Shown here: positions 11,492 to 29,490 of the stretch, in pieces
How positions within the stretch are numbered: the first letter of the stretch is position 1
Layout of the letters: each line of letters begins with the position of its first letter
Origin: Patescibacteria group bacterium
Lineage (GTDB): Bacteria; Patescibacteriota; Minisyncoccia; Phycocordibacterales; UBA12079
Assembly: GCA_018817595.1 (NCBI GenBank)
Contig: JAHITU010000024.1
Location: forward strand, 11,155-75,154
Length of the DNA: 64,000 bases
Direction of reading: 5' to 3'
The notes under the pieces: model-generated
Database searches by the model: none
What the model was told of the DNA's origin: nothing
What the model saw: the letters and a program-made list of their open reading frames with translations, nothing else
Program-made: the position numbers and the translations under genes

Positions 11492-11677
11492 TTACCAAGA
11501 AGATTTTCTAATACCTGGAATTTTTCCTTCATTTGCTAATTCTCTAAAACAAATTCTACATAAATCAAATTGTCTCATATAACCTCTCTTTCTCCCACAC
11601 TTAAAACATCTATTAGTTTCTCTAGTAGAAAATTTTGAAGGTTTATTTGATCTAGCTAATACTGATTTTTTTGCCAT
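11492..11677 (-). CDS. rpsZ: 30S ribosomal protein S14 type Z (zinc-binding, 61 aa)
   Basis: The [23 protein letters not shown]ys4 motif, and its position before rpsH. Confidence 0.9.
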
Positions 11678-11764
11678 ATTTATTTTCTTTAAATATAAAC
11701 CGCCTTAAAACTAGCGGGATACTTGCTTATCCTATCAAAAACACCCCTTGATGTCAATTAAATA

Positions 11765-11794
11765 AAGTATTTAATTTCAATAAATTAAATACTT
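11765..11794 (-). terminator. Intrinsic terminator ending the ABC/giant-protein transcription unit, upstream of rpsZ
   Basis: 12-bp inverted repeat aagtatttaatt-tcaataa-attaaatactt, followed by a T-rich tract on the minus strand. Confidence 0.45.
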
Positions 11795-11836: not shown

Positions 11837-13057
11837 TCATTTATATCTTAAAGCCTGAAGAGCATCTAATCGAGCAGCTCTTCTTGAAGGAGAAATTCCT
11901 GTTAATAAACCTACAGCCATGGAGAAAATTACTATACTAAAAATGAACCATGGAGGGTTATAAAATATATCTACAAAAACCCCTCCTAGAGAACGAGCCA
12001 ATATATTTAATGCAAAATTAAATACCCATTCTACTACTATACCAACCACGACTCCTATAACACCTCCCAAAAAACCCATAACTATAGCTTCACTTAGAAA
12101 AATAAAAGCAATATCTTTATTAGAAGCACCAATAGCTTTCATAATACCAACTTCATTCGTTCTTTCTAAAAGAGTAATAGTCATAGTATTAAACATTCCA
12201 ATTGCTGATACCACTAAAGCAATAAAACCAAATACTCCCAGAATAACCTGAATAGCACTAAAGATTTTGTTAATTTGATCAACTGTATCGGACAAAGCAG
12301 AAACTAAAAATCCCATATCAAAAATCTTTTCTCTCGCAGGGGATAAAAATTCATTTGATTTTACTTTAACCTTTAATTCATCATATCTATTTATACTTAG
12401 GTCACTAAGAAAACCTAAAGGCAAAAAAACAAAAGAAGAATCAGAGTTATCTATCACTCCTACAATTTTAAATTTTTCGTTTAAATCCACTATTTCTATT
12501 TCTCCTTCTACTAAAACTTCTTCGTATTCAATATTTTGAGTTATCTCCCTAGGTAGAAATACCTGAAAAGAAACTTCTGAACCGATAACTTCTTCTTCCT
12601 TTAAATCAAATAATTTAATCACAGCACTTGAAACTAAGATTTCAGGAGTATTGTTGTCAAATAATTTCCCTATTGATGGAATAATCCCTCCTAAATCAAA
12701 ATAATCAGTATTCACAGAATAAACTGTTGTATTAGCAATTAAATTATTTATACTCATTTGAGCAGGTAGAGTTATTTTTGGACTCACTTTATCAACTTCT
12801 TCAAAAGCTAATATTTTATCTATATTATCTTTATCCAAAACAATAGTTTCTACTTTCCCAGGAGCAACATCCAAAGATAATAGGGATTCACTAGTAGCGA
12901 TTTCTTTTAATAAAAGATCCTGTAAACCATAACCCATACCAACCAAAAATAGTACCGATCCAAAACCGACACCTAAACCAAGGACCGTCAAAAAGGTACG
13001 ACTTGATCGTCCTTTGAAACCTCTTATTGACAATCTAAATAGATCTGAATATAACAT
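11837..13057 (-). CDS. ABC transporter permease, MacB/FtsX family
   Basis: N-terminal TM helix, a large extracytoplasmic domain, and a C-terminal FtsX-type 3-TM module (MKAIGASNKDIAFIFLSEAIVMGFLGGVIGVVVG). Confidence 0.75.
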   Translation of the reverse strand: MLYSDLFRLSIRGFKGRSSRTFLTVLGLGVGFGSVLFLVGMGYGLQDLLLKEIATSESLLSLDVAPGKVETIVLDKDNIDKILAFEEVDKVSPKITLPAQMSINNLIANTTVYSVNTDYFDLGGIIPSIGKLFDNNTPEILVSSAVIKLFDLKEEEVIGSEVSFQVFLPREITQNIEYEEVLVEGEIEIVDLNEKFKIVGVIDNSDSSFVFLPLGFLSDLSINRYDELKVKVKSNEFLSPAREKIFDMGFLVSALSDTVDQINKIFSAIQVILGVFGFIALVVSAIGMFNTMTITLLERTNEVGIMKAIGASNKDIAFIFLSEAIVMGFLGGVIGVVVGIVVEWVFNFALNILARSLGGVFVDIFYNPPWFIFSIVIFSMAVGLLTGISPSRRAARLDALQALRYK

Positions 13058-13060
13058 AAT

Positions 13061-14371
13061 TTATTCTTGAGATAATATTATTTCTAACTCGTTTGTAAAA
13101 TGTTTAGCACTTACACGATTAAAACCAATTCCTCCTTTTTTCAAAGGTAAATCTAACTTCTTTTCAAATTCTTTAGTATTAATTTCATTAATTAATCTTT
13201 CCTTTATTAAAATATCTAACTTCATTCTTTGTTCTAAGCTTATTTGAATATCTTTTTTATTATCCAAAAGATATCTTCTTATTTCTTCAGCTTTTAAATC
13301 CAACTCTGATTTTTCTGAATTCGGTAAATTTATTTTATGTTTTAACAAATCAGCTTCTTCTAAAATTATATCTACTTTTCTCGCAAATTCTTGAGCTGTC
13401 TGTTTATAAAGACCCACTCCCCCATCTCTGAACGAATCATCAAATATCTTCTCCATAACATCGGTATCAATTTCTCCAGAAATTCTTTTAGCCACAACTT
13501 TTTCCAATCTGCTTATCTCAACAGGATTAAAATCTATTAAAAGGTGCTCTACCAAAGCCTTGGCTTTTAATTCCTCTTGCTTTAAATCTGGATAAATTTT
13601 AGCAAGTCTATTTAAAACTCCAACAATGGGTTTTTCTTCAGAAACCGATAGACTTTTATATTTAGACTTTTTATTTATTACTTCTCTGACTACTTGCCCG
13701 TCTTTCATATATAAAACTCTATGAGCATAATCAAGAAATCTATCGTCGTGAGTAACTAAAATAATTGTTTTTTTAAATTTTGTATTTAATTCTTCCAACA
13801 AACCCATCACTACATCAGTAGATTTAGAATCTAAATTTCCTACTGGTTCATCAGCCATAATAACAGACGGTTCATTTATCATAGCTCTAGCAATAGAAAC
13901 TCTTTGTCTTTGCCCCCCAGATAATTCATTAGGGAACTTATCAGCTTGTTTTAATATCCCAAAATATTTTAATAAATCTTTTGCTTTTTTCTTTCTTTCT
14001 TCTACTGGTCTTTCTATAAAAATTTGAGGTAAGATAACATTATCCAAAACACTCAAACTAGGCACTAAGTGATATGCCTGGAAAATCATTCCTATCTCGT
14101 GACGGTTAATATTCAATATATCTTTAGAAGCTAAAGATAAAATCTTTTTATCATTTATAATAATTTCCCCTGAAGTAAGTTTTTGTAGACCACTCATACA
14201 ATAAAGTAAAGTTGATTTTCCACAACCAGATGGTCCATAAATAATTACATATTCTTCAGGGTATATTTCAACGTTCACGTTTAACAAAGCGTTTGTTTCA
14301 TAGGTTTGACCTATATCATATATAAGGCTAGCGTCTTTTGTTTTTATTATGGGGTTTTTTATCATATTCAT
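13061..14371 (-). CDS. ABC transporter ATP-binding protein (MacB/LolD-like), with a C-terminal extension of about 200 aa
   Basis: Walker A GPSGCGKST, Q-loop, signature LSGGQRQRVSIARA, Walker B IMADEP, and an H-loop in VTHD. The extension beyond about aa 230 is of unknown function. Confidence 0.85.
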   Translation of the reverse strand: MNMIKNPIIKTKDASLIYDIGQTYETNALLNVNVEIYPEEYVIIYGPSGCGKSTLLYCMSGLQKLTSGEIIINDKKILSLASKDILNINRHEIGMIFQAYHLVPSLSVLDNVILPQIFIERPVEERKKKAKDLLKYFGILKQADKFPNELSGGQRQRVSIARAMINEPSVIMADEPVGNLDSKSTDVVMGLLEELNTKFKKTIILVTHDDRFLDYAHRVLYMKDGQVVREVINKKSKYKSLSVSEEKPIVGVLNRLAKIYPDLKQEELKAKALVEHLLIDFNPVEISRLEKVVAKRISGEIDTDVMEKIFDDSFRDGGVGLYKQTAQEFARKVDIILEEADLLKHKINLPNSEKSELDLKAEEIRRYLLDNKKDIQISLEQRMKLDILIKERLINEINTKEFEKKLDLPLKKGGIGFNRVSAKHFTNELEIILSQE

Positions 14372-14405
14372 TATATTATACCTGATTTTTGTTTTCGTTT
14401 AAAAT

Positions 14406-17400
14406 TTATAAACCTAGTCTTTCTAACCAACCAAATTTCTTTTCAAAGTTAGAGAAAATAATTTCTACAACATCTTGCTTTTTTTGAGGTGTTAATAAGG
14501 TGTAGTCTTTTGAGATAGATAGATTACCTTGAGAATCCTTGGACTGAACATTAAAACGATAAACAGTAGCTGGTTTTAGATTACCCAATACGGTTGTATG
14601 ACGATAAACAAGATCTTCTCTCAATTCACTACTTACTACAAATTCAGGGTTAATGGATGCTCCTTCTTGATAAAAAACTTGAGAGGTTGCCAACTCATCA
14701 GTTTGCCAAGTAATAATAGTTTGAATTTTTTTACCTTCTGAAGATACAGCTGATTCTGTTCTTAATTGTAATATCTGAGGAGGAATTACATCATCCACAT
14801 TATTAAATTCAGGAATAGTATGAGTAATTAACTCTCCGCTTTGAGTGGTTGATTTTAGACGTACAAAATATGTGGTTCCTCCCTCTAAATCTTCTATGGT
14901 AACCTCATGAGTAATACTCAGTCCTGCAACAGATTTTGTTTTTAATCTATCCTTTTGCAATTCTCCTTGATGATATGGAGTATATTCAATTTCTGTTGTT
15001 GATTCTACTGAAGTTTCCCATACAAATGTAGCTGAATGATCTTCTACATCCTTAACAGACCATTTAGTAATTTCTGGTACTTCAGCATTGGTTTTAAAAA
15101 CAAAATCTTTAGATTGAGCAATAGGTCCTACCTGTGATTTAGATTTTAATTTGTAGTGATATGTTGTACTTGGAGCTAAGTTAGAGAGAACCACAATATG
15201 AGAAGTTGTCAGCTCTTCTGCTTCTCCTCGTGTCTCTGTATATGGTTTACTTTTATTCAAATTATATTCAGCCTCTGTAGCTAACTCAATTAATGAGTTA
15301 GCTGGTTTATCAGTTCCCCAAGAAATGATAGCTGAAGACGAAGTCACCTTAACATTCGGTTCAGAACTTAAAAGTGGAGCTGGGATATATTTTGATAAAT
15401 CTTCGATAGTTTGAGTAGTTAAAACCAAGTTCTCTTCTAATTTTTGTACTGAAACCTGTCCTGCCATTTTTGAGAAAATTGAATTAACTTTTTGAGTCGC
15501 TAACTGCAATAGAGATTCTTGAGCTGTCTTAACTGTGCTACTTGTGGTTATAACAGGAGTTTCTTGAATATCTTCAATTTCTTGAGTGTCTTTCTCCACT
15601 CCTTCAAGAGAAGATAAAGTGGTGAAAGAAGCCTGGGGTGATTCAGCTTTATTACCTGAACTATCAATAGAAATAACTTTATAGAAATATTGATTTGAAG
15701 GGTAAAGTTTTGTTAAAGTTATTTTATGATTTCTACTCGTATTCAATGACATACCATTTAATAGCCCGTATTCTGGACCTGTACCATACTGAACTCCTTC
15801 ATTCGCGTCCTCGTTAGTAGCCCAAGTCACAGTAGCTGTAGTTGCACCAACATCAACTTTAACATCACTAATTACAGGAGCTTTTCTGTCAGTAACAGGA
15901 CAAGAAGCTCCTCCCCCTCCACCACCACTTGAAGCAGCGACACAAAAAGTTCCATTCCAAGAAGTATTAGAACCACAATAACTAGAACCAGCCCCTGCAC
16001 TAGCAATTCCCTCAGCTCTCGCAGCTTCTTCTCGTATGACCACAGCAGCCTCTTCAGACAAGGCTCCTAAAGTAGTAAAGAATGTTTCTGCACTAGTAGT
16101 AGCGTTCGAATTAGCATCAGTGGAAAGCACTCTGAAATAATATTTAATCTCTTCAGTTAAGCCAGATAATTTAACTGAGTGTGAAGTATCCAGAGTTGCC
16201 TTTGAAGAGGAGGCTGTATAGACTCCTGAAGTGGTTCCATAATCAACAACAGAATTTGAAGCTTCATCTGTTATCCAAGTAATGTACGCGAAAGTATCCC
16301 CAATAGTTGAAGCACTTGGATCAGTTGTAATATTAGGAGCAGTTATATCTGACGAATCTGTTGTGGTAAAGGTCCATCCCGCTCCAGCATTATCATCAGT
16401 TCTTGTATTAGAGTTGGAATCGGTACTTTTTAATCTTATGTAATAGGTGGTACCTGCTGTTAAGCCAGTTATATCAAAAGAATGGTTAGAGTTGTAGTTG
16501 TTGTTAGATTCTGTAGTTCCATAGGAATTAGATATTCCGTATTCTAGTGTTGAAGTAGCCACTTCACTGGTCGTCCAAGAAACAGTGGCTGTGGTATCTC
16601 CTATAGCAGTAATATCTGTATCACTATCAAAAGTAATTGTAGGAGCGGTCGAATCTTGAGTAGTAGTCAGACTATAATATGCAACTTCTCCATTAATAAC
16701 ATTTTTATCATTAGCTGTTCCTGAACTTACATAATAGTAATATTTAGTCCCTGCTGTTAAACCACTCACAGTCACTGAGTGTGAAGCCACTGAATCAGCT
16801 GAACCAGTTTGAGTAGCACTGGATAAATCTGAGTTAGTTGAATAATAAACATAAGAACTAGCTACAGTATCTGTAGTCCAAGTAATCACAGCTGATTCAT
16901 TATTTATAGTATCTGTAGTTACAGCAGAGATAGATGGACCTGCTAGAGTATCAAAAGTAAAACCATTATCTCCTGGAACTTTAGTAGCTGTATTATTATT
17001 AATATCCGTTGATTTAACCTGGTAATAATACGTAGTGTCTGGAGTTAAACCAGTCAAGACGATACTATGTTGTCCTAGGCCAGCAGCTGTATTTAACATA
17101 GTAGCTTTTCCAACATAAGGGGCATCTGTGAAGTCAGCTCCTGTAGCTGTAATATATTCTACTCTGGAATCGGCTAGCTCATCTGTATCCCAAGTAATAG
17201 TAGCTGACTGAGTAGTAATATTAGAAGCTGTAGTATTAGTAATAACAGGTTCAACAGCTTCTACTCCTCCCCCTCCTTCTGATCCGTCTTGAGTACCGTT
17301 AGCTGTTCCTGCAATAGCTGAAGAGTAAGCTGAAATATTTCCATCGGCATCAATTGAAAGAACTTTGTATTGATGAGTAGAATCAGCACTAAGACTTCTA

Positions 17401-20282
17401 TCCACATAATAATTCAAAGTTCTATCTGTAATAGTTGATTCTAATGAATAGTTAATTCCATCAGTGGCATGATAAACCTTGTAGGAACCAAAACCAGGAC
17501 CTGGATTATCAACAACTCCCCAAGTTAAAAACAAATCATAAGTCGCAGGAGTCACATTAACATTAGAGATATCTTGAATAACAACATTAGCAGGTGTATT
17601 GGGAGTAGTAGCATTAAGAACAGAAGATTCATTTCCATAAACATCTCTGAATTTAACATAAACAGTATCTGGATCAGTTGTGCTTTGGGTATCACTAGTT
17701 GAATATGATTCCCATGAAGCTCCTGCAAAACCAGAATCTAAAGAAATCATCATTTCTTTGTCTGAATCATCTGTAGCTGCCAAAGTCAAAGTAGCTGGAC
17801 TGGTAGAATTATCTACAATGACAGAAGTTGATGTAGGGGCAGTAGTATCTAAAATACCGGCTATGGTAGTAGAAGCCACGGTATTATTAGCCGCTTCTTT
17901 ATCGTCAAAGGTTGCTCTCATTTGAAAACCTGTTGTATACAAATCAGCCACAGTAGTTGAAGCTATCCATGTTGCTGTATAAGTTAAATATGAATCTTCT
18001 AAGACTTTGTTATCTGTGTATCCATCAGAGTTGTCATCAATCACTTCCCCACTACCTGGGGCTACACCATAAATAATTGATGAAGTAGCAATAGAATTCC
18101 AAGAAGATCCATTGTAATATTCAAAAGTAGGTGTTACATAATTAGGGATAACAGTTCCACTGGTTGTATCGGCATCTTTAATTTCATAAGAAATGTCTAC
18201 CACTCCATCTGTTCCTTGTACTGCTGTGAAAGTTCCGACTAAAGGAGCTCCATTAGCCACATAGATAGGAATAATATTATCAACCGTAGGTGAAGTTAAT
18301 CCAGGTTCAATCACTACTTTATATTGAAACCACTGATCATTAGATCCGTCTTTTAGAGCTGTAGGGATTACTGTAGTGTCACAAGCAACAGAACTTGTTA
18401 ATTTAGTACAACCGCTGGTTAAAAAGTTAGGAGTGGATGATGCTATTTCAGACCAAATAGCTGAATCTAAACCGACAGCAGAAGTGGCTGTTCTTAAATA
18501 CATTTTAACTTGTGAATTAGTTGGTAGAGTTGTATTCTCTGTCCAATTAATTCCTGCCATTACATTAGCAACTGCTTCTGTATTATATTTAGAAGAGATT
18601 AAATTTTCATTATTTTCAAAATAAGTATAATTAACTTTAATCTGATCAATTTCCGGAGTTGCGGCACTATCAGTTGTTGATAAATCCATCGCAAAATCTA
18701 AAGTAGTAGTTGTTCCAGCTGTAAACCCTCCACTAGTTGACCAATCTGCAGAATTCAATGCTTCCAATACTGTTTTAGACATTCCTTGAGATTGTAAATT
18801 AGCTAAAGAGGATAAGGCCCAGGCTGAACCAGTCCAATATTTCCAGGTTGTTCTTCCGTCGAAAGATACTAGATATTTTATATCTGTGTTAGTTGGAGTG
18901 GTTTGGGTTAAATCTACGTCTGTGATTGCAGAATAATTTGATACATCTATTTGAGTGGTATTTGTTGTAATTATGTAATATGGTGTTATTGGATAAGGAG
19001 AACTATAACTACTAATATCCATCATTTCTATTTCTGCTATAGAAATCGTAGTTCCACTTGAAACTGGAGCTGTGACATTTATTCGATAATAATTATATGC
19101 AATAGTATTCCCTATATCATATGTCTTCCATTCATGATATACCCAATCAGTAACATTACTCTGTGTATCAAGAGTAACCCAATTAGATCCATCATTTGAA
19201 CCGAGAAAAGTCCAATTCTTTGGCATTGTTTCATCTACTGAAAGATCTCCGGTCATACGATACCTTTTTATAATTTTAGTCTCTGGGAAAAGATATTGAA
19301 TCCAATGATTTAAACCTTGATTAAATGTTCTCCAATGAGTAGTTAAATTATTATCAAAAGCTTTGGTGGCATCATTACCGCCCGCAACATAATAAATACT
19401 AGCTGTCGCTGTTCCTCCATTACATAAATCATTTGAATAATTAATTACTGTTCCTTGTAATTTCCCAACCCCACCAACAATATCTGTTTTAGATGAATCC
19501 TCTTGTGTGTAATCTCCCTCTGTTGTGAAATCTATAGTGCTTGAAGCTGTTTGTGCTATTACTGTAATATCAGTTCCAGCATTAACACCAGAAGATTTAG
19601 AATAATATTTATCCCAATCTGATTGGTTAGATGTATGATTAGCTGTAGTTACAGTATCGACTCCTCCCACCCATGAAGCTTGAGTAAAATTATAGGTAGC
19701 AGCTTTAACAACAGAAAGTGGATATATTAAAGAAGAAACTAAAACAAAAATTATTCCAATAATTCCAATAGAAGTTTTTATAGTTGTTTTTATTCTGTTC
19801 TGTTTATGAAAATTAATCAATTGTTGTTCAAGAGAAATAGCTTGTTTTTTATCTACTTCTTCCCCTCTTTTGATTTGATTAATAATTTTATCTAAATCTA
19901 AATATTCAGTAGGACAGTGTTGTTTAAACTCATTTAAAATTTCATTCTCAACTAGAACTAAAGAATCTTTAGAAGATCTAAATAACAAAGCAAGAGAATA
20001 AATCAGTCTACGATAAGAATCAATTTCATCTTTGTTTTGAATTCTTTTGTATTCTTTTTTTAATAATTCTCCAACGATAGGAACAGAGCTATCTGTAATC
20101 TGAGAAATTATAATTAAAGATAAAATAAAAGCCAAAAGAATAATAAAAAAGATTATTCCTCCTACTAAATTCCATAGATAAAACAAAGTAAATACAGTTA
20201 GTAAAAACGTAATTACAGACAACAAAAAAGATACGTAAAAAGCCATCTGTTTTCTTAATTTAAACAAATATTTATTCATCAT
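14406..20282 (-). CDS. Giant (1958 aa) membrane-anchored surface protein with an F5/8-type-C (discoidin)-like domain and at least 8 fibronectin-III-like repeats
   Basis: N-terminal hydrophobic helices. A discoidin-like segment (NLTTHWRTFNQGLNHWIQYLF...NWTFLGSNDGSNWVTL). Repeated units of about 90 aa of the form TATITWDTDELADSRVEY...LTGLTPDTTYYYQVKSTD. Thr/Ser/Gly-rich. Confidence 0.7.
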   Translation of the reverse strand: MMNKYLFKLRKQMAFYVSFLLSVITFLLTVFTLFYLWNLVGGIIFFIILLAFILSLIIISQITDSSVPIVGELLKKEYKRIQNKDEIDSYRRLIYSLALLFRSSKDSLVLVENEILNEFKQHCPTEYLDLDKIINQIKRGEEVDKKQAISLEQQLINFHKQNRIKTTIKTSIGIIGIIFVLVSSLIYPLSVVKAATYNFTQASWVGGVDTVTTANHTSNQSDWDKYYSKSSGVNAGTDITVIAQTASSTIDFTTEGDYTQEDSSKTDIVGGVGKLQGTVINYSNDLCNGGTATASIYYVAGGNDATKAFDNNLTTHWRTFNQGLNHWIQYLFPETKIIKRYRMTGDLSVDETMPKNWTFLGSNDGSNWVTLDTQSNVTDWVYHEWKTYDIGNTIAYNYYRINVTAPVSSGTTISIAEIEMMDISSYSSPYPITPYYIITTNTTQIDVSNYSAITDVDLTQTTPTNTDIKYLVSFDGRTTWKYWTGSAWALSSLANLQSQGMSKTVLEALNSADWSTSGGFTAGTTTTLDFAMDLSTTDSAATPEIDQIKVNYTYFENNENLISSKYNTEAVANVMAGINWTENTTLPTNSQVKMYLRTATSAVGLDSAIWSEIASSTPNFLTSGCTKLTSSVACDTTVIPTALKDGSNDQWFQYKVVIEPGLTSPTVDNIIPIYVANGAPLVGTFTAVQGTDGVVDISYEIKDADTTSGTVIPNYVTPTFEYYNGSSWNSIATSSIIYGVAPGSGEVIDDNSDGYTDNKVLEDSYLTYTATWIASTTVADLYTTGFQMRATFDDKEAANNTVASTTIAGILDTTAPTSTSVIVDNSTSPATLTLAATDDSDKEMMISLDSGFAGASWESYSTSDTQSTTDPDTVYVKFRDVYGNESSVLNATTPNTPANVVIQDISNVNVTPATYDLFLTWGVVDNPGPGFGSYKVYHATDGINYSLESTITDRTLNYYVDRSLSADSTHQYKVLSIDADGNISAYSSAIAGTANGTQDGSEGGGGVEAVEPVITNTTASNITTQSATITWDTDELADSRVEYITATGADFTDAPYVGKATMLNTAAGLGQHSIVLTGLTPDTTYYYQVKSTDINNNTATKVPGDNGFTFDTLAGPSISAVTTDTINNESAVITWTTDTVASSYVYYSTNSDLSSATQTGSADSVASHSVTVSGLTAGTKYYYYVSSGTANDKNVINGEVAYYSLTTTQDSTAPTITFDSDTDITAIGDTTATVSWTTSEVATSTLEYGISNSYGTTESNNNYNSNHSFDITGLTAGTTYYIRLKSTDSNSNTRTDDNAGAGWTFTTTDSSDITAPNITTDPSASTIGDTFAYITWITDEASNSVVDYGTTSGVYTASSSKATLDTSHSVKLSGLTEEIKYYFRVLSTDANSNATTSAETFFTTLGALSEEAAVVIREEAARAEGIASAGAGSSYCGSNTSWNGTFCVAASSGGGGGGASCPVTDRKAPVISDVKVDVGATTATVTWATNEDANEGVQYGTGPEYGLLNGMSLNTSRNHKITLTKLYPSNQYFYKVISIDSSGNKAESPQASFTTLSSLEGVEKDTQEIEDIQETPVITTSSTVKTAQESLLQLATQKVNSIFSKMAGQVSVQKLEENLVLTTQTIEDLSKYIPAPLLSSEPNVKVTSSSAIISWGTDKPANSLIELATEAEYNLNKSKPYTETRGEAEELTTSHIVVLSNLAPSTTYHYKLKSKSQVGPIAQSKDFVFKTNAEVPEITKWSVKDVEDHSATFVWETSVESTTEIEYTPYHQGELQKDRLKTKSVAGLSITHEVTIEDLEGGTTYFVRLKSTTQSGELITHTIPEFNNVDDVIPPQILQLRTESAVSSEGKKIQTIITWQTDELATSQVFYQEGASINPEFVVSSELREDLVYRHTTVLGNLKPATVYRFNVQSKDSQGNLSISKDYTLLTPQKKQDVVEIIFSNFEKKFGWLERLGL

Positions 20283-20345
20283 ATTTGTCTTTAATTATAT
20301 ATAAATTAACTCATTCAATCCAATTAATTTGGGGACAAGACTTAT

Positions 20346-20372
20346 TAAAAAACCACCTTTTGGTGGTTTTTT
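20346..20372. terminator. Bidirectional terminator after rplE, marking the end of the rpsS-rplE transcription unit
   Basis: aaaaaaccacc-tttt-ggtggtttttt. Confidence 0.55.
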
Positions 20373-20378
20373 AATTCT

Positions 20379-20939
20379 TTATCTTTTTTTTCTTTTTTTT
20401 TCAGCTTCTGTTTTAAAAGGGAAACCTAGATATCGCAAAAAAACTTCCGCTTCTTTTTTATCTTTGGCTGTAGTTACTATTGTAATAGACATTCCAAAGA
20501 CATCTCTTATTTCTTCATCAGAAGTTTCAGGGAAAATAATATGTTCTTTGATTCCCAAAGTAGCATTTCCCATTTCATCAATTGATGATAGTTTCAAACC
20601 TCTAAAGTCTTTTGTTCTAGGAATAGAAATATTGATTAATTTATCCAAAAAACCAAACATTCTGTCCCCTCTTAACGTTACTTGATAACCCACATTTTCT
20701 CCATCTCTTAATTTAAAAGCAGCGATTGATTTTTTAGCTTTTCTTACAGCAGGTTTTTGACCAGTAATTTTAGTTAATCTATCTAAAATTAAAGCATCTC
20801 TATCTTTTGTATTTCTAGAAGAACCTGTGCCTACATTCAAAATAACCTTCTCCAACTTAGGAGTTTGCATTTTATTCTTATATCCAAATTCTGATTTTAA
20901 TGTTTCAAAAGTTTGATTTTGTTTTTCTTTTATGTTCAT
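20379..20939 (-). CDS. rplE: 50S ribosomal protein L5
   Basis: PKLEKVILNVGTG....D.......L..ITGQKP...AKKSIAAFKLR.G..VG..VTLRGDRM..FLDKLI...PR..DFRG. Confidence 0.9.
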   Translation of the reverse strand: MNIKEKQNQTFETLKSEFGYKNKMQTPKLEKVILNVGTGSSRNTKDRDALILDRLTKITGQKPAVRKAKKSIAAFKLRDGENVGYQVTLRGDRMFGFLDKLINISIPRTKDFRGLKLSSIDEMGNATLGIKEHIIFPETSDEEIRDVFGMSITIVTTAKDKKEAEVFLRYLGFPFKTEAEKKRKKR

Positions 20940-24355: not shown

Positions 24356-24685
24356 TTATGCGTTAGCTTTAGCTGCTTTTGCAGCTGTTATTTCAGCTTC
24401 TTTTTTCTTTTGTTCTAATTCTTTTTGCATCTTACCTCCGTGTTTAATGAATTTCTTTGTTGGTGAGAATTCCCCTAATCTGTGTCCAACCATATCTTCT
24501 GTTATTAAAACTTCAATATGCTTTCTGCCATTATGTACCCCGAAAGTAAAACCTGACATTTCTGGTGATATCTGGGAAGCTCTTTTCCAAGTTTTTATCA
24601 CACCTAAATCGGCTGGCTTTTTACCTTCTATTTTTTTTAAAAGTTTTTCGTCCACATAAGGACCTTTTTTTAGTGATCTTGTCAT
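24356..24685 (-). CDS. rpsS: 30S ribosomal protein S19
   Basis: [19 protein letters not shown]......[51 protein letters not shown]. Confidence 0.9.
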
Positions 24686-24721
24686 AATTTAAAATAGCTC
24701 TTTTTTGCTTGAGCTTGCTAT

Positions 24722-24749
24722 ATATTAACAGAATTTATTTCTATGTCAA
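24722..24749 (-). promoter_or_regulatory. Sigma70-type promoter for the rpsS-rplE operon (TTGACA-N16-TAATAT on the minus strand)
   Basis: Complement of 24744-24749 is TTGACA. Complement of 24722-24727 is TAATAT. The spacer is 16 nt. The promoter lies about 40 nt upstream of the rpsS ATG. Confidence 0.5.
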
Positions 24750-24787
24750 TAAAGTATGACATAAAAAATATTATTCATAATAAAATT

Positions 24788-24821
24788 AAATATAGGATGA
24801 TTATAAAATCATCCTATATTT
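24788..24821. terminator. Hairpin terminator downstream of the 1012-aa protein gene
   Basis: aaatataggatgatt-ataaa-atcatcctatattt. Confidence 0.45.
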
Positions 24822-24840
24822 AATTTTAAAACCTAATTAA

Positions 24841-27800
24841 TTAAATCTCTTGGAAACTTGGAACCAACATAAATTCCAAAGAAACTGATTCTGAAGGAGC
24901 CCCTACTTCTGTTCCGTTCTGACAAGTTAAAGTAAATTCTGATTTGTGTTCAATAGCAGGAGTAGTAAATGAACCAGAAATTATTCCACTTTCAGATTGG
25001 GCTTGAGTGTAATTGTACGTAGCAATAAATCCATCCGGTCCTTCTAGTGTACAAGAAGTAGCATTGCCAATTCCACTCCAAATGATTTCTCTAGTTTTTC
25101 CTTTGACTACCCAATAAATATTATCATCAGTTCTAAATCCTAAATTAGTTGGAGTTCCTGTAATAGTTTTTGATGCAGGAATAATAGGAGTGGGGCAAGC
25201 AGATACAGGAGGAACCACAGCATTACACAAACCGTCACAACCAATAATTCCAGTACCTGTCATATAACAAGAGTTTGTTCCCGCAGTACAAACTGTACCG
25301 TACCCAACAGGATTAGCAGGAACTGAGGCTGAACAAGTTCCGTCACACTGGATAGTTCCTGAAGCTGTTGTGCCACAAGCATTAGCAGCTGAAGTACAAG
25401 CATCACCTAGATCATCAGGATTATCAGGAGCTGAAACAGAACAATCACCCGTACATTCAATTTGTCCATAATTTACATCCCCACAAGAATTAGCATCTGA
25501 TTCACAAGGGTCTCCTAAACCAGCAGGTACAGTAGGGACAACGGCTGAACAGGTTCCATTACAAGCAATCGTTCCGCTCCCTTTATCTCCGCATAGATTT
25601 GGAGAAGATTGGCAATAACTTCCATAACTGGCTACACAACAAGATACTGTATTACAGCTCTGATATTGAATATTTGAACCTGCACAATACGCTCCCCCTC
25701 CTGATGGGTATGGATTTGAACAAGTTCTTGTTGAATATTGAGTTCCTCCTCCACAAACAACTGTACAAGGAGACCAAGCAGACCAAGCAGACCAACCTCC
25801 GTTTACAGCAGGGCTAACCACTGTAAAATAAACAGGAGCATTAGCATAGGGTGTACCTGAAAAATCAGAGATCCTGAAATTATAGTGAACTCCTTCATAT
25901 TGCCCATACTGCACCCAATGACTATAGGGGGTAAATCCATAATTTGGCAATAAGGAATTACACACTTCAGGGCCTGTCCAATTATTCCTTTCCATGTACC
26001 AACCACTATTAAGTTGCTCAGCTTTATTACTACAATAAAGATCATTATTAAATTCTTGTGGATAACCATAATAAGTTTTAAACCATCGCTCATCGTCCCA
26101 ATGAAACCAAGTGTAATAAGACCCTGGGGAACTAGGAGCACTTGCACTAAAAGTATAATAAGAACTACCCCTTCCTATATAAAAAGAACCTGCAGGATAG
26201 GGTATAATAGCATAATACTGACTACTAGTAACAGAATTCCAACAAACAATAGAACTTTCATACATTGTAGCTGTAATTGTTTCATAAGGGTTATAAGTAC
26301 TTTTGTTTAAGCTAATATTCCAAGTAAATGAATGATCCCAAAACCGATCTGCTCCACCAGCCCTAACAGCATAATTAATTCTATAGGAAGCAGCGTCGGC
26401 TACATTATAAGAACTCCCAAAAAAAGCAAAAGCTTGCAAAAAAACAAAAAAAACAATAACAAAAGTCGGAAATTTAAACCCTTTGTTTTTAAAATAAACT
26501 AAACTCACCAAAATTAAAAACCCTACACCTAATAACAGGTATACTAATAAAGAATTTCCTCTGTCTAGATCAAAATCAAATTTTGTATAGGAAAGAACTT
26601 CTCCTGAGTCATTATCAATTACTTGGATATTTACTTTTGGAAAGAGACAGTCTTTGTTAATTTGAAAATCTATAATCTGATTCAGGGAAAATTGATCAAT
26701 TTCAACCTTTAAAATATCTCCACAACTGTTATTATTTTTATCTACAACTTCGATTTTAGCTATTACATTTTCTACAAAAGAAGGTCCTAGTCTCGAACCA
26801 TAAAAAGAGTCAGCTGAACCACTGTAAAATAAGTTTATCTTGGCTATCTCTCCAGATTCATAAATTGTTTTATCGAGTGAAAGATTAGGAATAGTACTTC
26901 CTTTTCCTCTCAAAACATAATGAGCTGAAACAAAATCAACAGGAATATTTAAACTGTTATTAAAAGTTAATTTAACATCATAGGCTTGAGATTTTTCTGG
27001 TTTAGGTATTTCCAAAGAAAAAGTTTTCTTCTCTAAAGCTTTTATTTCAATGTTATCTTGTGAGAGTTGAGGAGTTTCAACTTTTTCTCCAAAAGTTGAT
27101 CTATAAAAAGTTTCGAAAGCAGGAATCAAAGACAAATCTTTATCAGAGTGGTTTTCTATCTCACAATTTAATTTCAATATTTCTTCTGGATTAACATCCA
27201 CGCCTTGGTCTAAAGTATAATGAGGGTCCAATTCTTCTCCTTCGATATTAAAAAAACAACTTGGTTTTATGATTTCCACAAATGAATTATCTCCTTCAAG
27301 CGTAACTTCACCTAAACTACCTAACCCTAAAATTAAACCTTCTTTATTTTTACTGACTATATATAATTGATATATTCCATTCAAATAATCAGGAGCATCA
27401 TATTTAATTTTTTTAATTATTTCTTCATTTTCTCCTAAATTGATTATTTCAGAATAAATCTTTTCATCAATAATTGATTGTGTTTGTAAACCATCATTCT
27501 CATTTATTAAAATTAAGTGCACCCCATACTGAATATCTGATTGAATCATTTCCCCGTTAGAAAGAACAAAAGATAAATCAAATTTATTATTTATTTGTTT
27601 TATTATTTTAGAATCATATATATTAAGACTTGATATCATTACTATTTCAGGAGTAATATCTTCTCCTAGTTCTTTTGTTGAATCCTCAATATATTTTTTT
27701 ATTAGATCTTGTTCATCTATAGAATCATTCTCTCCAAGCATCATTGAATTCATAAGATTAATTTCTTCTTGAGTTAATTCTTTTGGTGCACCAAAGCCTT

Positions 27801-27879
27801 CTTGTGCTGAAACATTTAGAGTACAATACCCTAAAATTAAAACAGTACAAAACAAAAAATATGTTAATATTTTTTTCAT
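24841..27879 (-). CDS. Secreted/membrane protein (1012 aa) with a thrombospondin type-1 repeat and four tandem Cys-rich modules of about 40 aa
   Basis: Signal peptide MKKILTYFLFCTVLILGYCTLNVSA. Two mid-protein hydrophobic helices. GGWSAWSAWSPCTVVCGGGTQYSTRTCSNP matches the W-x-x-W-x-x-W / CSVTCG TSR consensus. It is followed by repeats of the form CxSxANxCGxxxxGxIxCxGxCSAxxPxxP. Confidence 0.7.
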   Translation of the reverse strand: MKKILTYFLFCTVLILGYCTLNVSAQEGFGAPKELTQEEINLMNSMMLGENDSIDEQDLIKKYIEDSTKELGEDITPEIVMISSLNIYDSKIIKQINNKFDLSFVLSNGEMIQSDIQYGVHLILINENDGLQTQSIIDEKIYSEIINLGENEEIIKKIKYDAPDYLNGIYQLYIVSKNKEGLILGLGSLGEVTLEGDNSFVEIIKPSCFFNIEGEELDPHYTLDQGVDVNPEEILKLNCEIENHSDKDLSLIPAFETFYRSTFGEKVETPQLSQDNIEIKALEKKTFSLEIPKPEKSQAYDVKLTFNNSLNIPVDFVSAHYVLRGKGSTIPNLSLDKTIYESGEIAKINLFYSGSADSFYGSRLGPSFVENVIAKIEVVDKNNNSCGDILKVEIDQFSLNQIIDFQINKDCLFPKVNIQVIDNDSGEVLSYTKFDFDLDRGNSLLVYLLLGVGFLILVSLVYFKNKGFKFPTFVIVFFVFLQAFAFFGSSYNVADAASYRINYAVRAGGADRFWDHSFTWNISLNKSTYNPYETITATMYESSIVCWNSVTSSQYYAIIPYPAGSFYIGRGSSYYTFSASAPSSPGSYYTWFHWDDERWFKTYYGYPQEFNNDLYCSNKAEQLNSGWYMERNNWTGPEVCNSLLPNYGFTPYSHWVQYGQYEGVHYNFRISDFSGTPYANAPVYFTVVSPAVNGGWSAWSAWSPCTVVCGGGTQYSTRTCSNPYPSGGGAYCAGSNIQYQSCNTVSCCVASYGSYCQSSPNLCGDKGSGTIACNGTCSAVVPTVPAGLGDPCESDANSCGDVNYGQIECTGDCSVSAPDNPDDLGDACTSAANACGTTASGTIQCDGTCSASVPANPVGYGTVCTAGTNSCYMTGTGIIGCDGLCNAVVPPVSACPTPIIPASKTITGTPTNLGFRTDDNIYWVVKGKTREIIWSGIGNATSCTLEGPDGFIATYNYTQAQSESGIISGSFTTPAIEHKSEFTLTCQNGTEVGAPSESVSLEFMLVPSFQEI

Positions 27880-28015
27880 TATAATAATAATTAGTCAATA
27901 ATAACTATATTATATACTAATATAGTTATTACTTACACATAGTTATCCCCAGAAATACAAAAACCTTTATCTAAAAAGATGAAGGTTTTTGTATTTTCTA
28001 TATTTATCTTATAGA

Positions 28016-28699
28016 TTACATTTTTTTTCTAACATCTTCAATCATATCAGATGCAAAATTCTTTCCTCCTAATCCGAAAGCTAGTCCTATTGCTAGAGAC
28101 ATAGCTACCACCAATCCTGTGAACAATGTTTGGACAAAAGCTGCGGCAACTCCTAATTGATAAAGAGCCATCAATCCAGCAAATACCCAAATTGCCCATC
28201 GAGATACAGTTCCTAAAAATCCGAAATGAGCTTTCTTAGCTCCAGCGGCTTTAGCAGAACCAATCACTAGGTGTTCTGTAGCATCAGCAATTATAGCAGC
28301 AATCAAAAGAATAGCTGCGGCTGCGATTACTCTTGGTAGATAAAGAAGAACTACTTGTTGTAGAAATTGATTTACTTGGTCTAAGCCTAATACATCGAAA
28401 GATGCAACAGCAAAAACAACAATAATAAACCATTTAATTAAAGCACCTATAAATATTCCAGCATCCAAACGGAAACCAGCTTTATTAAGTGTTTTTTCTA
28501 CCCCAGCACTTCTTAGAACTTTATCAATTCCAAGTGAACGAATAATTTGAGCTACCACTCTTCCTATCAAAGCTCCAACAACCCATCCAATGACAAAGAT
28601 TACTATAGCAATAATCAAGTTTGGGACAAAGCCCATCACCCCTATCCAAAGACTTTGAAAAGACTGTGATAATACTTCACTCCATGTTTGTAGTATCAT
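28016..28699 (-). CDS. Membrane protein of the conserved-TM-helix / MscS N-terminal-like family
   Basis: Four to five TM helices with repeated VxxLGxD/LxxAG motifs. 227 aa. Confidence 0.45.
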   Translation of the reverse strand: MILQTWSEVLSQSFQSLWIGVMGFVPNLIIAIVIFVIGWVVGALIGRVVAQIIRSLGIDKVLRSAGVEKTLNKAGFRLDAGIFIGALIKWFIIVVFAVASFDVLGLDQVNQFLQQVVLLYLPRVIAAAAILLIAAIIADATEHLVIGSAKAAGAKKAHFGFLGTVSRWAIWVFAGLMALYQLGVAAAFVQTLFTGLVVAMSLAIGLAFGLGGKNFASDMIEDVRKKM

Positions 28700-29454: not shown

Positions 29455-29490
29455 CCTGCCCACGCCTGCCGGCGCGCAGGGGCAGGCGGG
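29455..29490. repeat. Extended GC palindrome CCTGCCCACGCCTGCCGGCGCGCAGGGGCAGGCGGG
   Basis: Near-identical copy at 34105-34144. Reverse-orientation copy at 42171-42216. Confidence 0.6.

What the first reader, a model, noticed from the sequence alone, without database searches (positions are those of the whole stretch)
11837..20282. Ribosomal-protein operon split by an autonomous MacB-type ABC transporter / giant Fn3-discoidin surface-protein cassette
In the conserved spc cluster, rplE is normally followed directly by rpsZ/rpsN. Here three genes (FtsX-type permease, LolD/MacB-type ATPase with a C-terminal extension of about 200 aa, and a 1958-aa protein with membrane anchors, a discoidin-like domain and at least 8 Fn3-like repeats) sit between them. 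The cassette has its own terminators on both sides: 20346-20372 after rplE and 11765-11794 before rpsZ. A separate promoter-like TTGACA element lies upstream of rpsZ. MacB-type ABC modules transmit force across the membrane to extracytoplasmic partners, which makes the giant protein a plausible partner. Co-localisation with the most highly expressed operon is unusual.
Basis: partly seen in the sequence, partly recalled or inferred. Interest (0 to 1): 0.7.

Follow-up and report, generated by a model that had tools for sequence, protein, structure and literature searches.

The report
Giant surface protein with ABC motor
A three-gene unit conserved across the ultra-small Patescibacteria (a roughly 2,000-residue surface fibre protein plus a MacB-type ABC "motor" whose ATPase has an uncharacterised tail domain) sits here in a gap between two ribosomal-protein genes that was already a transcription-unit boundary in this lineage, so the location is a minor curiosity and the apparently undescribed trio is the interesting part.

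Summary
On the minus strand, rplE (20379-20939) and rpsZ (11492-11677) are separated by a 1958-aa Fn3/discoidin protein, a 436-aa MacB/LolD-type ATPase with a 200-aa extension, and a MacB_PCD+FtsX permease. Hairpins flank the block on both sides, and a TTGACA-17-TAGGAT element precedes rpsZ. Two independent assemblies and a related genome (ATPase 85% identical) show the same arrangement, so it is not a chimera.

The interpretation needs revising in two ways.
- **The split predates the cassette.** The closest cassette-free relative has a terminator after rplE and a near-identical rpsZ promoter and leader. Other relatives carry unrelated genes at this junction. No sign of mobility or foreign composition was found.
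- **The trio is a conserved Patescibacteria module.** Ten distinct loci show giant protein, ATPase and permease in that order, in different neighbourhoods. None of 41 generic MacB-type ATPase loci has a giant upstream gene.

The giants share an invariant C-terminal module (three Fn3 domains plus an amphipathic helix) but have variable heads. The ATPase extension is a tandem helical repeat with no confident family or structural match.

Most likely this is a type VII (mechanotransmission) ABC system with a dedicated giant adhesin partner. That mechanism is inferred, not shown.

The parts
20379..20939 (-). rplE (ribosomal protein L5), the last gene of the upstream ribosomal-protein transcription unit
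   Evidence: Pfam Ribosomal_L5 and Ribosomal_L5_C. 77% identical to L5 of the closest relative, L003.
20344..20375 (-). Intrinsic-terminator-like hairpin after rplE (AAAAAACCACC-AAAA-GGUGGUUUUUU)
   Evidence: Pattern scan. RNA fold -20 kcal/mol, z = -6.1. Equivalent terminators follow rplE in L003, L005, L006, L008 and L009.
20294..20323 (-). Possible promoter of the giant gene: TTGGAT, 18 nt, TATAAT, ending 12 nt before the ATG. This is a weak call from my own reading of the sequence.
   Evidence: Sequence read. It was not reported by the consensus scan because the -35 hexamer matches only 3 of 6. Inference only.
14406..20282 (-). Giant surface protein (1958 aa). It has N-terminal membrane helices, a conserved 'AATYNFTQASWVGG' segment, a discoidin head, an Fn3 array, a low-confidence helical linker and a conserved C-terminal module.
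   Evidence: [quoted passage not shown]
19029..19409 (-). Discoidin (F5/8 type C) domain, residues 292-418. This is the variable 'head', replaced by Kelch, FG-GAP or DUF2341 domains in homologues.
   Evidence: Pfam. Heads of homologues.
14409..15395 (-). Family-defining C-terminal module (residues 1630-1958): three Fn3 domains plus a terminal amphipathic helix (…VVEIIFSNFEKKFGWLERLGL).
   Evidence: Conserved in all 7 full-length giants and about 22 fragments. AF2 model m0f6707f95bd4: three beta-sandwiches with pLDDT about 82-94, then helix 430-442. Foldseek matches tandem Fn3 triplets.
13061..14371 (-). ABC ATPase (436 aa). The nucleotide-binding domain (NBD) is of the MacB/LolD/MJ0796/BceA type (residues 1-235), followed by a C-terminal domain (CTD).
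   Evidence: More than 100 homologues of 420-460 aa match with 96-100% coverage, and those that carry a source name are Patescibacteria lineages.
13064..13666 (-). ATPase C-terminal domain (residues 236-436): two homologous helical repeats of about 80 aa, each with a conserved GGxGL(Y/N)xxTA motif.
11837..13057 (-). MacB-type permease (406 aa): TM1, an extracytoplasmic MacB_PCD domain, then three FtsX-type TM helices. Its start lies 3 nt after the ATPase stop.
   Evidence: Pfam PF12704 at 21-244 and PF02687 at 275-397. Best NCBIfam hits are MacB, ADOP and LolCE, all far below equivalog cut-offs.
11765..11794 (-). AU-only hairpin after the permease gene (14-bp stem). A likely but weak terminator.
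   Evidence: Sequence. Fold -11.3 kcal/mol, z = -5.0. It does not meet the GC criterion of the scan.
11729..11757 (-). rpsZ promoter-like element TTGACA-17-TAGGAT with TG upstream of the -10 hexamer. It is conserved in relatives with and without the cassette.
   Evidence: Near-identical sequence upstream of rpsZ in L003 (no cassette) and L175 (cassette), and a similar one in L004.
11700..11717 (-). Conserved 5'-leader hairpin of rpsZ (CCGC-N8-GCGG)
   Evidence: The fold is not significant on its own (z = -1.6). No Rfam match.
11492..11677 (-). rpsZ (zinc-form S14, 61 aa), the first gene of the downstream unit S14-S8-L6-L18-S5-L15-SecY-Adk-Map

Best explanation
**What it is.** The 8.45-kb block is a native three-gene operon that is conserved across Patescibacteria. 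It encodes a type VII (MacB/FtsEX/LolCDE-class, 'mechanotransmission') ABC transporter together with a dedicated extracytoplasmic partner.

**The partner protein.** The partner is a giant Sec-exported Fn3-fibre protein with three parts:
- a lineage-variable ligand-binding head (discoidin here);
- a long Fn3 stalk;
- an invariant C-terminal module of three Fn3 domains plus an amphipathic helix.

**Proposed mechanism (inferred).** I infer that the invariant C-terminal module is the cell-proximal end, and that it docks on the permease's extracytoplasmic domain or the membrane beside it. ATP hydrolysis by the ATPase dimer would then be transmitted through the permease to anchor, assemble or mechanically actuate the fibre, which serves in attachment to a host cell or substrate. 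The ATPase's tandem helical C-terminal domain would be a cytoplasmic regulatory or dimerisation module specific to this system.

**Why it is here.** In the window's sub-lineage the operon lies between rplE and rpsZ because that junction had already become a boundary between two transcription units (a terminator after rplE, a separate rpsZ promoter) in this clade of Paceibacteria-like organisms. The spacer tolerates insertions and holds different genes in different relatives.

**Shown versus inferred.** Shown: gene content, domain architecture, conserved gene order, the pre-existing operon boundary, and native base composition. Inferred: physical docking, force transmission, the adhesive role, and the direction of the relocation.
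For: **Type VII ABC identity**
- The permease has MacB_PCD and FtsX domains. The NBD's best hits are LolD, DevA and MacB (NCBIfam) and MJ0796, BceA, LolD and MacB (PDB).

**Conserved trio**
- Ten distinct loci have a giant gene whose product ends in the ...NFExxFGW tail, then the ATPase with its CTD, then the permease. The spacers are 2-56 nt and 0-53 nt.
- The neighbourhoods all differ: TIM/PGK, STT3/GT2, RecO, queuosine/methyltransferase, TsaD, beta-CASP.

**Specificity control**
- 0 of 41 generic MacB-type ATPase loci have an ORF of 1000 aa or more directly upstream, against 7 of 7 for the CTD family. The hypergeometric p is about 1e-8 (my calculation).

**Architecture of the giants**
- The heads vary (discoidin, Kelch, FG-GAP, DUF2341), while the last 135 residues are 40-52% identical to the window's (60% mean column identity) with 19 invariant columns. 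This is the pattern expected when the C-terminus contacts a conserved partner and the head contacts variable targets.
- AF2 confirms three Fn3 domains plus a terminal helix.

**CTD**
- It is restricted to this ATPase family.

**Precedent from the literature**
- Every characterised type VII system works through a dedicated extracytoplasmic partner: EnvC, LolA, MacA-TolC, TesA (PMC5985334, PMC12646458, PMC7668044).

**Pre-existing operon boundary**
- Terminators follow rplE in L003, L005, L006, L008 and L009, and the rpsZ promoter and leader are conserved in L003, L004 and L175.
- Unrelated cargo occupies the junction elsewhere: a methyltransferase in L009; a PG_binding_1 protein and a DUF2177 protein in L006; a 208-aa ORF in L007.

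**Native and inherited**
- Four-fold GC3 is 0.145-0.176, against 0.13-0.25 for other non-ribosomal genes.
- L175 shares the junction.
- L003 is collinear with the window and shows no cassette remnant.
Against: - No physical interaction, expression or localisation data exist.
- One locus (L178) has a giant-family C-terminus followed by TPR and POR genes, with no ABC transporter within 6.8 kb, so adjacency is not obligatory.
- Which end is anchored is unresolved. The N-terminus has a TM helix, followed in 6 of 7 giants by small residues and a conserved ATYxFxQTSW segment. This could be either a signal anchor or a cleaved signal peptide. If the N-terminus is the anchor, the head is membrane-proximal and my stalk model is wrong.
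- The CTD has no confident structural homologue, so its role is a guess.
- The well-studied Saccharibacterium Southlakia epibionticum has a MacB_PCD/FtsX pair (SEML1_0053/0054), but with a shorter ATPase (311 aa) and no adjacent giant gene. It scores as non-essential or growth-defect only (PMC10633639 supplements). The module is therefore not universal or indispensable in the phylum.
- The polarity of the event (insertion here versus loss in L003) rests on parsimony over a handful of genomes.
Confidence: 0.6

Rival explanations
1. A recently acquired mobile or genomic-island cassette that broke an intact spc operon.
For: - The block has its own flanking hairpins and is missing from the closest sequenced relative, L003.
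- The giant gene has a higher overall GC (0.35-0.38) than its flanks.
- An IS200-like Y1 transposase gene lies elsewhere in the window (40604-41371), and Y1_Tnp genes sit two genes downstream of the trio in L083 and L086.
Against: - There are no bracketing direct repeats, no recombinase next to the block and no tRNA.
- Four-fold-site GC3 is native. The raised GC comes from Thr/Ser/Gly/Ala-rich composition and is shared by the window's other giant genes.
- The terminator and the rpsZ promoter exist in L003 without the cassette.
- L175 (85-92% identical proteins) has the same junction, so the placement is inherited.
- The closest ATPase homologues belong to the same lineage.
Confidence: 0.08
2. 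The ABC pair is an ordinary MacB-type exporter or resistance pump (for peptides, lipids or antimicrobials), and the giant protein is merely a neighbour with no functional link.
For: - NCBIfam's best hits are to LolD, DevA, MacB and bacteriocin or darobactin exporters.
- One giant-family gene lacks an adjacent ABC transporter (L178).
- MacB-type pairs without giants exist in Saccharibacteria.
Against: - The same gene order with near-zero spacers occurs at 10 loci whose ATPases are only 43-86% identical to the window's and whose neighbourhoods are unrelated. The control set gives 0 of 41.
- The ATPase carries a family-specific CTD found only in this context.
- All NCBIfam scores are far below the equivalog cut-offs.
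- No HlyD/MacA-type adaptor appears among the genes called next to the trio at the loci examined.
Confidence: 0.12
3. The transporter is a dedicated secretion, release or extraction device for the giant protein rather than a permanent partner. It would either recognise the invariant C-terminal helix as a secretion or sorting signal (by analogy with type 1 secretion system (T1SS) adhesins), or extract the N-terminal TM anchor from the membrane in the manner of LolCDE.
For: - The extreme C-terminus is the most conserved part of the giant. C-terminal signals are the rule for ABC-dependent giant adhesins (established knowledge of T1SS).
- LolCDE and YbbAP extract membrane-embedded moieties (PMC12646458).
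- A conserved small-residue site follows the N-terminal TM helix.
Against: - MacB-type transmembrane domains form no transmembrane channel (PMC5985334).
- The giant has an N-terminal signal or anchor, which implies Sec export.
- The conserved region spans about 330 residues of folded Fn3 domains, not just a short signal.
Confidence: 0.15
4. The placement next to ribosomal-protein genes is itself selected: transcriptional read-through from the rplN-rplE unit drives very high, growth-coupled expression of the surface protein.
For: The position is retained in two related genomes. In this lineage a second giant surface-protein gene (the TSP1 protein) sits just upstream of rpsS.
Against: - A strong terminator separates rplE from the giant gene.
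- The cassette's four-fold GC3 (0.145-0.176) is unlike that of most ribosomal-protein genes (0.05-0.11) and of the strongly biased 1187-aa gene (0.023).
- In all other lineages the trio lies away from ribosomal genes.
Confidence: 0.05

Closest known systems
FtsEX with EnvC, PcsB, CwlO or RipC (type VII ABC system that regulates an extracytoplasmic partner)
   Same: The ATPase and the FtsX-fold permease are separate polypeptides encoded side by side. No substrate is thought to cross the membrane. Work is done on a dedicated extracytoplasmic protein partner encoded in or near the operon (PMC7668044, PMC5985334).
   Different: - The permease here has a full MacB_PCD, not the FtsX extracellular domain.
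- Scores fall below the cut-offs: FtsX models 36-54 bits against 225-255, and FtsE 176 bits against 265.
- The partner is a giant Fn3 fibre of about 2,000 aa with no hydrolase or hydrolase-activator domain.
- The ATPase carries an extra 200-aa tandem-repeat domain.
LolCDE and YbbAP-TesA (type VII ABC systems that extract membrane-anchored molecules)
   Same: LolD gives the best NCBIfam match to the NBD (204 bits). The permease architecture is MacB_PCD plus FtsX. In both known systems a membrane-embedded anchor is handed to a partner protein (PMC12646458).
   Different: - Scores are below the LolD and LolCE equivalog cut-offs (204 against 308; 72 against 362).
- There is a single permease gene (a homodimer, by inference).
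- Patescibacteria are described as having a single membrane and a peptidoglycan wall (PMC11809585), so there is no outer membrane to traffic to.
- The associated protein is a giant Fn3 protein, not a chaperone or a lipase.
MacAB-TolC and Gram-positive MacB-like pumps (YknXYZ, Spr0693-0695)
   Same: The permease fold and the NBD subfamily match. PDB hits include 5lil, 5nik and 5xu1.
   Different: - No HlyD/MacA-type adaptor gene is present in or beside the cassette.
- The NBD is not fused to the permease.
- Conserved linkage to a giant surface protein and an ATPase CTD are both unknown in these pumps.
Type 1 secretion of giant repeat adhesins (LapA with LapBCE, RTX/BAP-type adhesins)
   Same: A giant repeat-rich adhesin is encoded next to a dedicated ABC system. 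The extreme C-terminus of the adhesin is conserved.
   Different: - The ABC fold class differs (T1SS exporters are not FtsX/MacB-type).
- There is no membrane-fusion or outer-membrane component.
- The giant here has an N-terminal signal or anchor.
- The repeats are Fn3 domains, not RTX or BIg.
Invasion of the S10-spc-alpha ribosomal operon cluster by unrelated genes ('invasion-separation', Brandis 2021, PMC8046335)
   Same: Non-ribosomal genes are inserted between units of the otherwise highly conserved cluster. The insertion is then inherited by a sub-lineage.
   Different: Here the junction lies inside what is normally a single operon (spc, between rplE and rpsN/Z). In this clade it had already become an operon boundary with its own terminator and promoter. 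The events described previously were in Gammaproteobacteria and Bacilli.

Membership tests
Type VII (MacB/FtsX-fold) ABC transporter superfamily | Permease with four TM helices and a large extracytoplasmic domain between TM1 and TM2 (MacB_PCD), followed by the FtsX C-terminal TM bundle | tested here: met
   PF12704 at residues 21-244 (E = 2e-16) and PF02687 at 275-397 (E = 3e-22), both above the Pfam cut-offs.
Type VII (MacB/FtsX-fold) ABC transporter superfamily | Cognate NBD of the MacB/LolD/FtsE subfamily, encoded adjacent to the permease | tested here: met
   NCBIfam top hits are LolD, DevA, DarD and MacB over residues 7-239. PDB top hits are MJ0796, BceA, LolD and MacB. The gene ends 3 nt before the permease start.
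Type VII (MacB/FtsX-fold) ABC transporter superfamily | Acts through a dedicated extracytoplasmic partner by mechanotransmission | not testable with these tools
   Only conserved synteny with the giant protein supports this: 10 loci, against 0 of 41 controls. No interaction or ATPase data exist.
LolCDE lipoprotein-release system | Score at or above the NCBIfam equivalog cut-offs for LolD and LolC/E | tested here: not met
   LolD 204 bits against a cut-off of 308; lolCE 72 bits against 362.
FtsEX cell-division system | Score at or above the FtsE and FtsX model cut-offs; FtsX-type extracellular domain | tested here: not met
   FtsE 176 bits against 265. FtsX_Gpos 54 against 225. FtsX_Gneg 36 against 255. 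The extracytoplasmic domain matches MacB_PCD instead.
MacAB-type tripartite efflux pump | Adjacent HlyD/MacA-family periplasmic adaptor; NBD fused to the permease in MacB proper | tested here: not met
   The block contains only the three genes, and ribosomal-protein genes flank it. No HlyD-family hit appears among the called genes at any homologous locus. MacB equivalog scores are 86 and 183 bits against a cut-off of 966.
Conserved spc ribosomal-protein operon | Contiguous order rplN-rplX-rplE-rpsN/Z-rpsH-rplF-rplR-rpsE-(rpmD)-rplO-secY | tested here: not met
   All genes are present in that order except rpmD, but 8.7 kb separates rplE from rpsZ. Relatives L003-L010 also have widened gaps of about 80-3260 nt with terminators.
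Mobile genetic element or genomic island | Recombinase or transposase, flanking repeats or target duplication, tRNA or attachment site, deviant composition | tested here: not met
   no bracketing repeats; no tRNA; no recombinase or defence domains; native GC3.
Anti-phage defence system (PADLOC models) | A specific match to a defence-system protein model | tested here: not met
   Only generic P-loop and FtsX-TM matches were found, and none for the giant protein.

The most novel reading that the evidence does not exclude
Probability: 0.3. Interest if true: 0.8.

Novelty: new variant of a known kind. Interest (0 to 1): 0.58.

Why it matters
**The open question.** Patescibacteria make up a large share of bacterial diversity, and every cultivated member lives attached to another microbe. 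Beyond type IV pili, the molecular basis of attachment is largely unknown (PMC11623550, PMC10633639). Large Fn3 and lectin surface proteins are repeatedly named as candidates, but only one genome at a time (PMC13059738, PMC11809585).

**What this adds.** A conserved operon that ties such proteins to an ATP-driven MacB-fold transporter would give a defined, testable machine. Its features are:
- invariant docking parts;
- swappable ligand-binding heads, suggestive of host or substrate specificity;
- an ATPase with an uncharacterised domain.

It would also extend the type VII ABC paradigm, in which a motor works with a dedicated extracytoplasmic partner, to a new kind of partner.

**The ribosomal-operon aspect.** This matters less. 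It shows that the nearly universal rplE-rpsN adjacency has been converted into an operon boundary in one clade, and that the resulting spacer has become a landing site for other genes.

Tried and rejected
**Checks that came back negative**
- Genetic code 4: rejected. Table 11 already gives intact long ORFs, and table 4 mainly adds spurious antisense ORFs.
- Rfam at gathering thresholds and tRNA scans of the whole window: nothing found.
- Direct-repeat search around the block: only the internal Fn3 periodicity of about 300 nt, with no bracketing repeats.
- blastn and blastx of the L003 spacer against the cassette: no remnant.
- PADLOC: no defence-system signature.

**Searches that under-performed**
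- Metagenome scan with the CTD alignment failed because it has no sufficiently conserved 7-10-column stretch.
- Metagenome scan with the whole-ATPase alignment returned only generic MacB-type NBDs, because the search patterns were Walker motifs. I re-used these loci as the negative control.
- Word-indexed protein searches with the giant's C-terminal region returned only short fragments (6 and 24 hits). They did not even return the full-length giants, so the family size of the giant remains unmeasured.

**CTD fold search**

**Literature**
- Nine searches found no description of this trio.
- I checked whether the essential Fn3 protein SEML1_0890 of Southlakia epibionticum is a member. It is a 195-aa protein and is not. 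The MacB_PCD pair in that organism (SEML1_0053/0054) has a 311-aa ATPase and no adjacent giant gene.
Full report
**1. What is in the sequence**

The window has about 30% GC, uses the standard bacterial code, and comes from a Patescibacteria (CPR) genome. L5 is 77% identical to that of a 'Patescibacteria group bacterium' MAG and 58-61% identical to Taylorbacteria, Kaiserbacteria and Paceibacterota MAGs. The ATPase and the giant protein are GenBank MBU1046756.1 and MBU1046757.1.

On the minus strand the gene order is as follows:
- S19, L22, S3, L16, L29, S17, L14, L24, L5;
- then the giant protein (1958 aa), the ABC ATPase (436 aa) and the MacB_PCD/FtsX permease (406 aa);
- then S14 (61-aa zinc form), S8, L6, L18, S5, L15, SecY, Adk, Map.

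The hairpin after rplE (20344-20375; -20 kcal/mol, z = -6.1), the AU-only hairpin after the permease gene (11765-11794; z = -5.0) and the TTGACA-17-TAGGAT element upstream of rpsZ (11757-11729) are all present. The same locus was assembled independently from two samples, so it is not a chimera.

**2. Is the interruption unusual, and did the cassette cause it?**

I fetched 80 loci with L5 as the query. In 73 of them the L5-S14 tblastn gap is at most 243 nt, and much of that reflects the unaligned N-terminus of long-form S14. The seven exceptions (L003, L005-L010) all belong to the eight nearest relatives (L003-L010). The real intergenic distances in those eight are about 80 to 3260 nt, and none contains the trio.

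In L003, L005, L006, L008 and L009, rplE is followed by a clear intrinsic terminator.

The closest relative, L003, is perfectly collinear with the window from L10 to Ndk, with 57-86% identical proteins. Its rplE-rpsZ spacer is 443 nt long and has no ORF. It contains:
- a strong terminator after rplE;
- a near-identical rpsZ promoter (TTGACT-17-TAGGAT);
- the same CCCGC...GCGG leader hairpin as the window.

Other relatives carry unrelated genes in the junction:
- L009 has a SAM methyltransferase;
- L006 has a PG_binding_1 protein, a DUF2177 membrane protein and one more ORF;
- L007 has a 208-aa ORF.

In this clade, therefore, the spc operon had already been divided into two transcription units at rplE|rpsZ, and the spacer is a permissive landing site. 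The cassette occupies that break and did not create it.

A second genome (L175, GCA_018902735.1) has the giant C-terminus, the ATPase (85% identical), the permease (88%), the same promoter, then S14 (98%) and S8 (92%). The placement is therefore inherited within a sub-lineage. Parsimony across L003-L010 favours insertion after the split from L003. No remnant of the cassette is detectable in the L003 spacer.

**3. Is it mobile or foreign?**

I found no evidence that it is.
- No direct repeats bracket the block.
- No tRNA is present in the window.
- No recombinase lies in or beside the block.
- PADLOC gives no defence signature.
- GC at four-fold degenerate sites is 0.145-0.176 for the three genes, inside the range of the window's other non-ribosomal genes (0.13-0.25). 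Most ribosomal-protein genes lie at 0.05-0.11.

The giant gene's higher overall GC comes from its Thr/Ser/Gly/Ala-rich composition and is shared by the window's other giant genes. The same codon data argue against expression at ribosomal-protein level.

**4. The trio is a conserved module**

The ATPase, including its extension, has more than 100 homologues of 420-460 aa that align over 96-100% of its length, and every hit that carries a source name is annotated as a Patescibacteria lineage.

I looked up the genomic context of eight family members (43-86% identical to the window's ATPase). Six were chosen only for contig length and two because they are the closest homologues. Every one showed the same order: a giant Fn3 protein (1400-2500 aa where complete), then the ATPase, then the MacB_PCD/FtsX permease. 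The spacers are 2-56 nt and 0-53 nt. These loci are L083-85, L086, L087-89, L170-171 (a Saccharibacteria MAG), L172-173 (Wildermuthbacteria), L174, L175 and L176.

The neighbourhoods are all different: TIM/PGK, STT3/GT2, RecO, queuosine synthesis, TsaD, beta-CASP/MurJ. None is ribosomal except L175.

I also ran a reverse test, starting from fragments of the giant's C-terminus. It gave one more positive (L177) and one negative (L178, with no ABC transporter within 6.8 kb downstream).

As a control I used 41 loci of generic MacB-type ATPases without the extension, which the failed metagenome scan had returned. None has an ORF of 1000 aa or more directly upstream, against 7 of 7 for this family. 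The hypergeometric p is about 1e-8 by my calculation.

**5. Anatomy of the parts**

*Giant protein.*
- The N-terminus is positively charged and is followed by a TM helix. The window's protein has about 165 extra residues before it, with further hydrophobic helices and a charged loop.
- In 6 of 7 giants, small residues and a conserved 'ATYxFxQTSWxGG...HxTNQxxW' segment come next. This is compatible with either a signal anchor or a cleaved signal peptide.
- The head is variable: discoidin here, and Kelch beta-propeller, FG-GAP or DUF2341 in other lineages.
- A long array of Pur_ac_phosph_N-type Fn3 domains follows, then a low-confidence helical linker.
- The last roughly 330 residues are strongly conserved: three Fn3 domains plus a terminal amphipathic helix (...IIxNFExTFGW). 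Identity to the window over the last 135 residues is 40-52% (mean column identity 60%), with 19 invariant columns.
- The AF2 model has pLDDT of about 82-94 for the three Fn3 domains.

A variable N-terminal head, a repetitive stalk and an invariant C-terminus make up the layout of an adhesin whose C-terminus is the cell-proximal, partner-binding end.

*ATPase.*
- Residues 1-235 are a MacB/LolD/MJ0796/BceA-type NBD.
- Residues 236-436 are two homologous helical repeats of about 80 aa (29% identity, E = 1e-10). Each has a conserved GGxGL(Y/N)xxTA motif.
- A profile search of 1.84 billion cluster representatives finds only 383 proteins with this domain. In full-length proteins it sits at about residues 235-435. 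It is a restricted, unannotated domain specific to this ATPase family.

*Permease.* It has a canonical MacB_PCD and FtsX architecture, and all scores are far below the LolC/E, FtsX and MacB equivalog cut-offs.

**6. Most likely mechanism**

Established knowledge of type VII ABC systems is that they move nothing through the membrane. They use ATP-driven movements of the extracytoplasmic domain to act on a dedicated partner (EnvC, LolA, MacA-TolC, TesA; PMC5985334, PMC7668044, PMC12646458).

The conserved operon, the family-specific ATPase domain and the invariant C-terminal module of the giant protein fit a system of this kind, with the giant Fn3 fibre as the partner. I infer that the transporter anchors, assembles or actuates an adhesive fibre whose exchangeable head determines what is bound.

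This is inference. No interaction, expression or localisation data exist, and which end of the fibre is anchored is unresolved.

The rivals, with my confidence in each, are:
- a dedicated release, extraction or secretion device for the giant protein (0.15);
- a functionally unrelated exporter (0.12);
- a mobile island (0.08);
- selection for ribosomal-operon co-expression (0.05).

**7. Comparison with what is known**

The system belongs to the type VII/MacB-fold ABC superfamily: the architecture was tested and the criteria are met. It is not LolCDE, FtsEX or MacAB, because their scores or required components were tested and are not met.

Published work on Patescibacteria notes large Fn3, lectin and DUF2341 surface proteins as candidate host-interaction factors (PMC13059738, PMC11809585, PMC10633639). 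In nine full-text searches I found no description of their linkage to a MacB-type transporter or of the ATPase extension. The library does not cover most subscription journals, so this absence is provisional.

The insertion into the ribosomal cluster resembles the 'invasion' events described for Gammaproteobacteria and Bacilli (PMC8046335).

**8. Verdict**

The partnership idea is strengthened, while 'operon split by an autonomous cassette' is replaced by 'a native conserved operon relocated into a pre-existing operon boundary'.
- Novelty: a new variant of a known kind.
- Interest: 0.58. This rests on the conserved trio, not on its ribosomal address.

Noticed in passing
window 24841-27879 (minus strand): A second giant surface-protein gene sits inside the ribosomal region. 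It encodes a 1012-aa protein with a signal peptide, a mid-protein TM segment, a thrombospondin type 1 (TSP_1) domain and Cys-rich repeats. It lies between a 227-aa MS_channel-like gene and rpsS. The collinear relative L003 has only a 124-nt spacer at this position.
   Followed up: partly
window 24356-32127: The S10-L3-L4-L23-L2 half of the S10 operon is absent upstream of rpsS. Instead, L10 and L7/L12 (31028-32127) are followed by a few small genes and then rpsS, with no rpoB/rpoC after L7/L12. L003 shows the same arrangement, so the ribosomal super-cluster is extensively rearranged in this lineage.
   Followed up: partly
window 10905, 21003, 21992, 22327, 42841, 47406, 51325, 53875; also the L175 permease-rpsZ spacer: A dispersed GC-rich palindrome, CCTGCC(T/C)(G/A)CCGGCAGGCAGG, often with conserved flanks (e.g. 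TTGCGAAGCAA), occurs in intergenic spacers of this 30%-GC genome, including inside the ribosomal-protein operons. It looks like a REP-type repeat or a shared terminator family. An IS200-like Y1 transposase gene at 40604-41371 could be the cognate RAYT-type (REP-associated Y1) transposase.
   Followed up: no
window 43163-46726 (minus strand): A 1187-aa protein has no significant Pfam match (only a faint PG_binding_1 hit). Its GC at four-fold degenerate sites is 0.023, which is more biased than the ribosomal-protein genes (mostly 0.05-0.11). This suggests very high expression, so it is a candidate major envelope or S-layer protein.
   Followed up: no
window 11700-11757; L003 9040-9100; L175 2890-2970; L004 10560-10620: The promoter-like element and the short CCGC...GCGG hairpin in the rpsZ 5' leader are conserved across relatives with and without the cassette. 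This could be a ribosomal-protein autoregulatory leader. There is no Rfam match, and the fold is not significant on its own (z = -1.6).
   Followed up: partly
window 58679-62701; L087 18016-21314: The gene string ProRS-like aaRS, peptidase M16, AI-2E transporter lies directly downstream of the trio (after a DUF2341 giant gene) in the Parcubacteria locus L087. The same string is present in the window about 40 kb away from the trio. This may be a trace of the trio's former neighbourhood.
   Followed up: no
window 14406-46726: Four giant predicted surface proteins (1958, 1012, 1332 and 1187 aa) occupy about 16.5 kb, roughly a quarter of the 64-kb window. The 1332-aa protein has lamin-tail, Fn3 and beta-helix domains.
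   Followed up: no
L083 13054-13716; L086 13701-13910: IS200-like Y1 transposase (Y1_Tnp) genes or fragments lie two genes downstream of the trio in two unrelated homologous loci. This is a possible hint at how the module gets relocated, but no such gene lies beside the cassette in the window.
   Followed up: no
L087 4565-4760 (N-terminus of the giant homologue): The cytoplasmic N-terminal extensions of the giant proteins vary between lineages. The window's has extra TM helices and a charged loop of about 100 aa. The L087 protein begins with a segment of about 60 aa that reads like a helix-turn-helix (excisionase or MerR-like) domain. No domain search was run on it.
   Followed up: no
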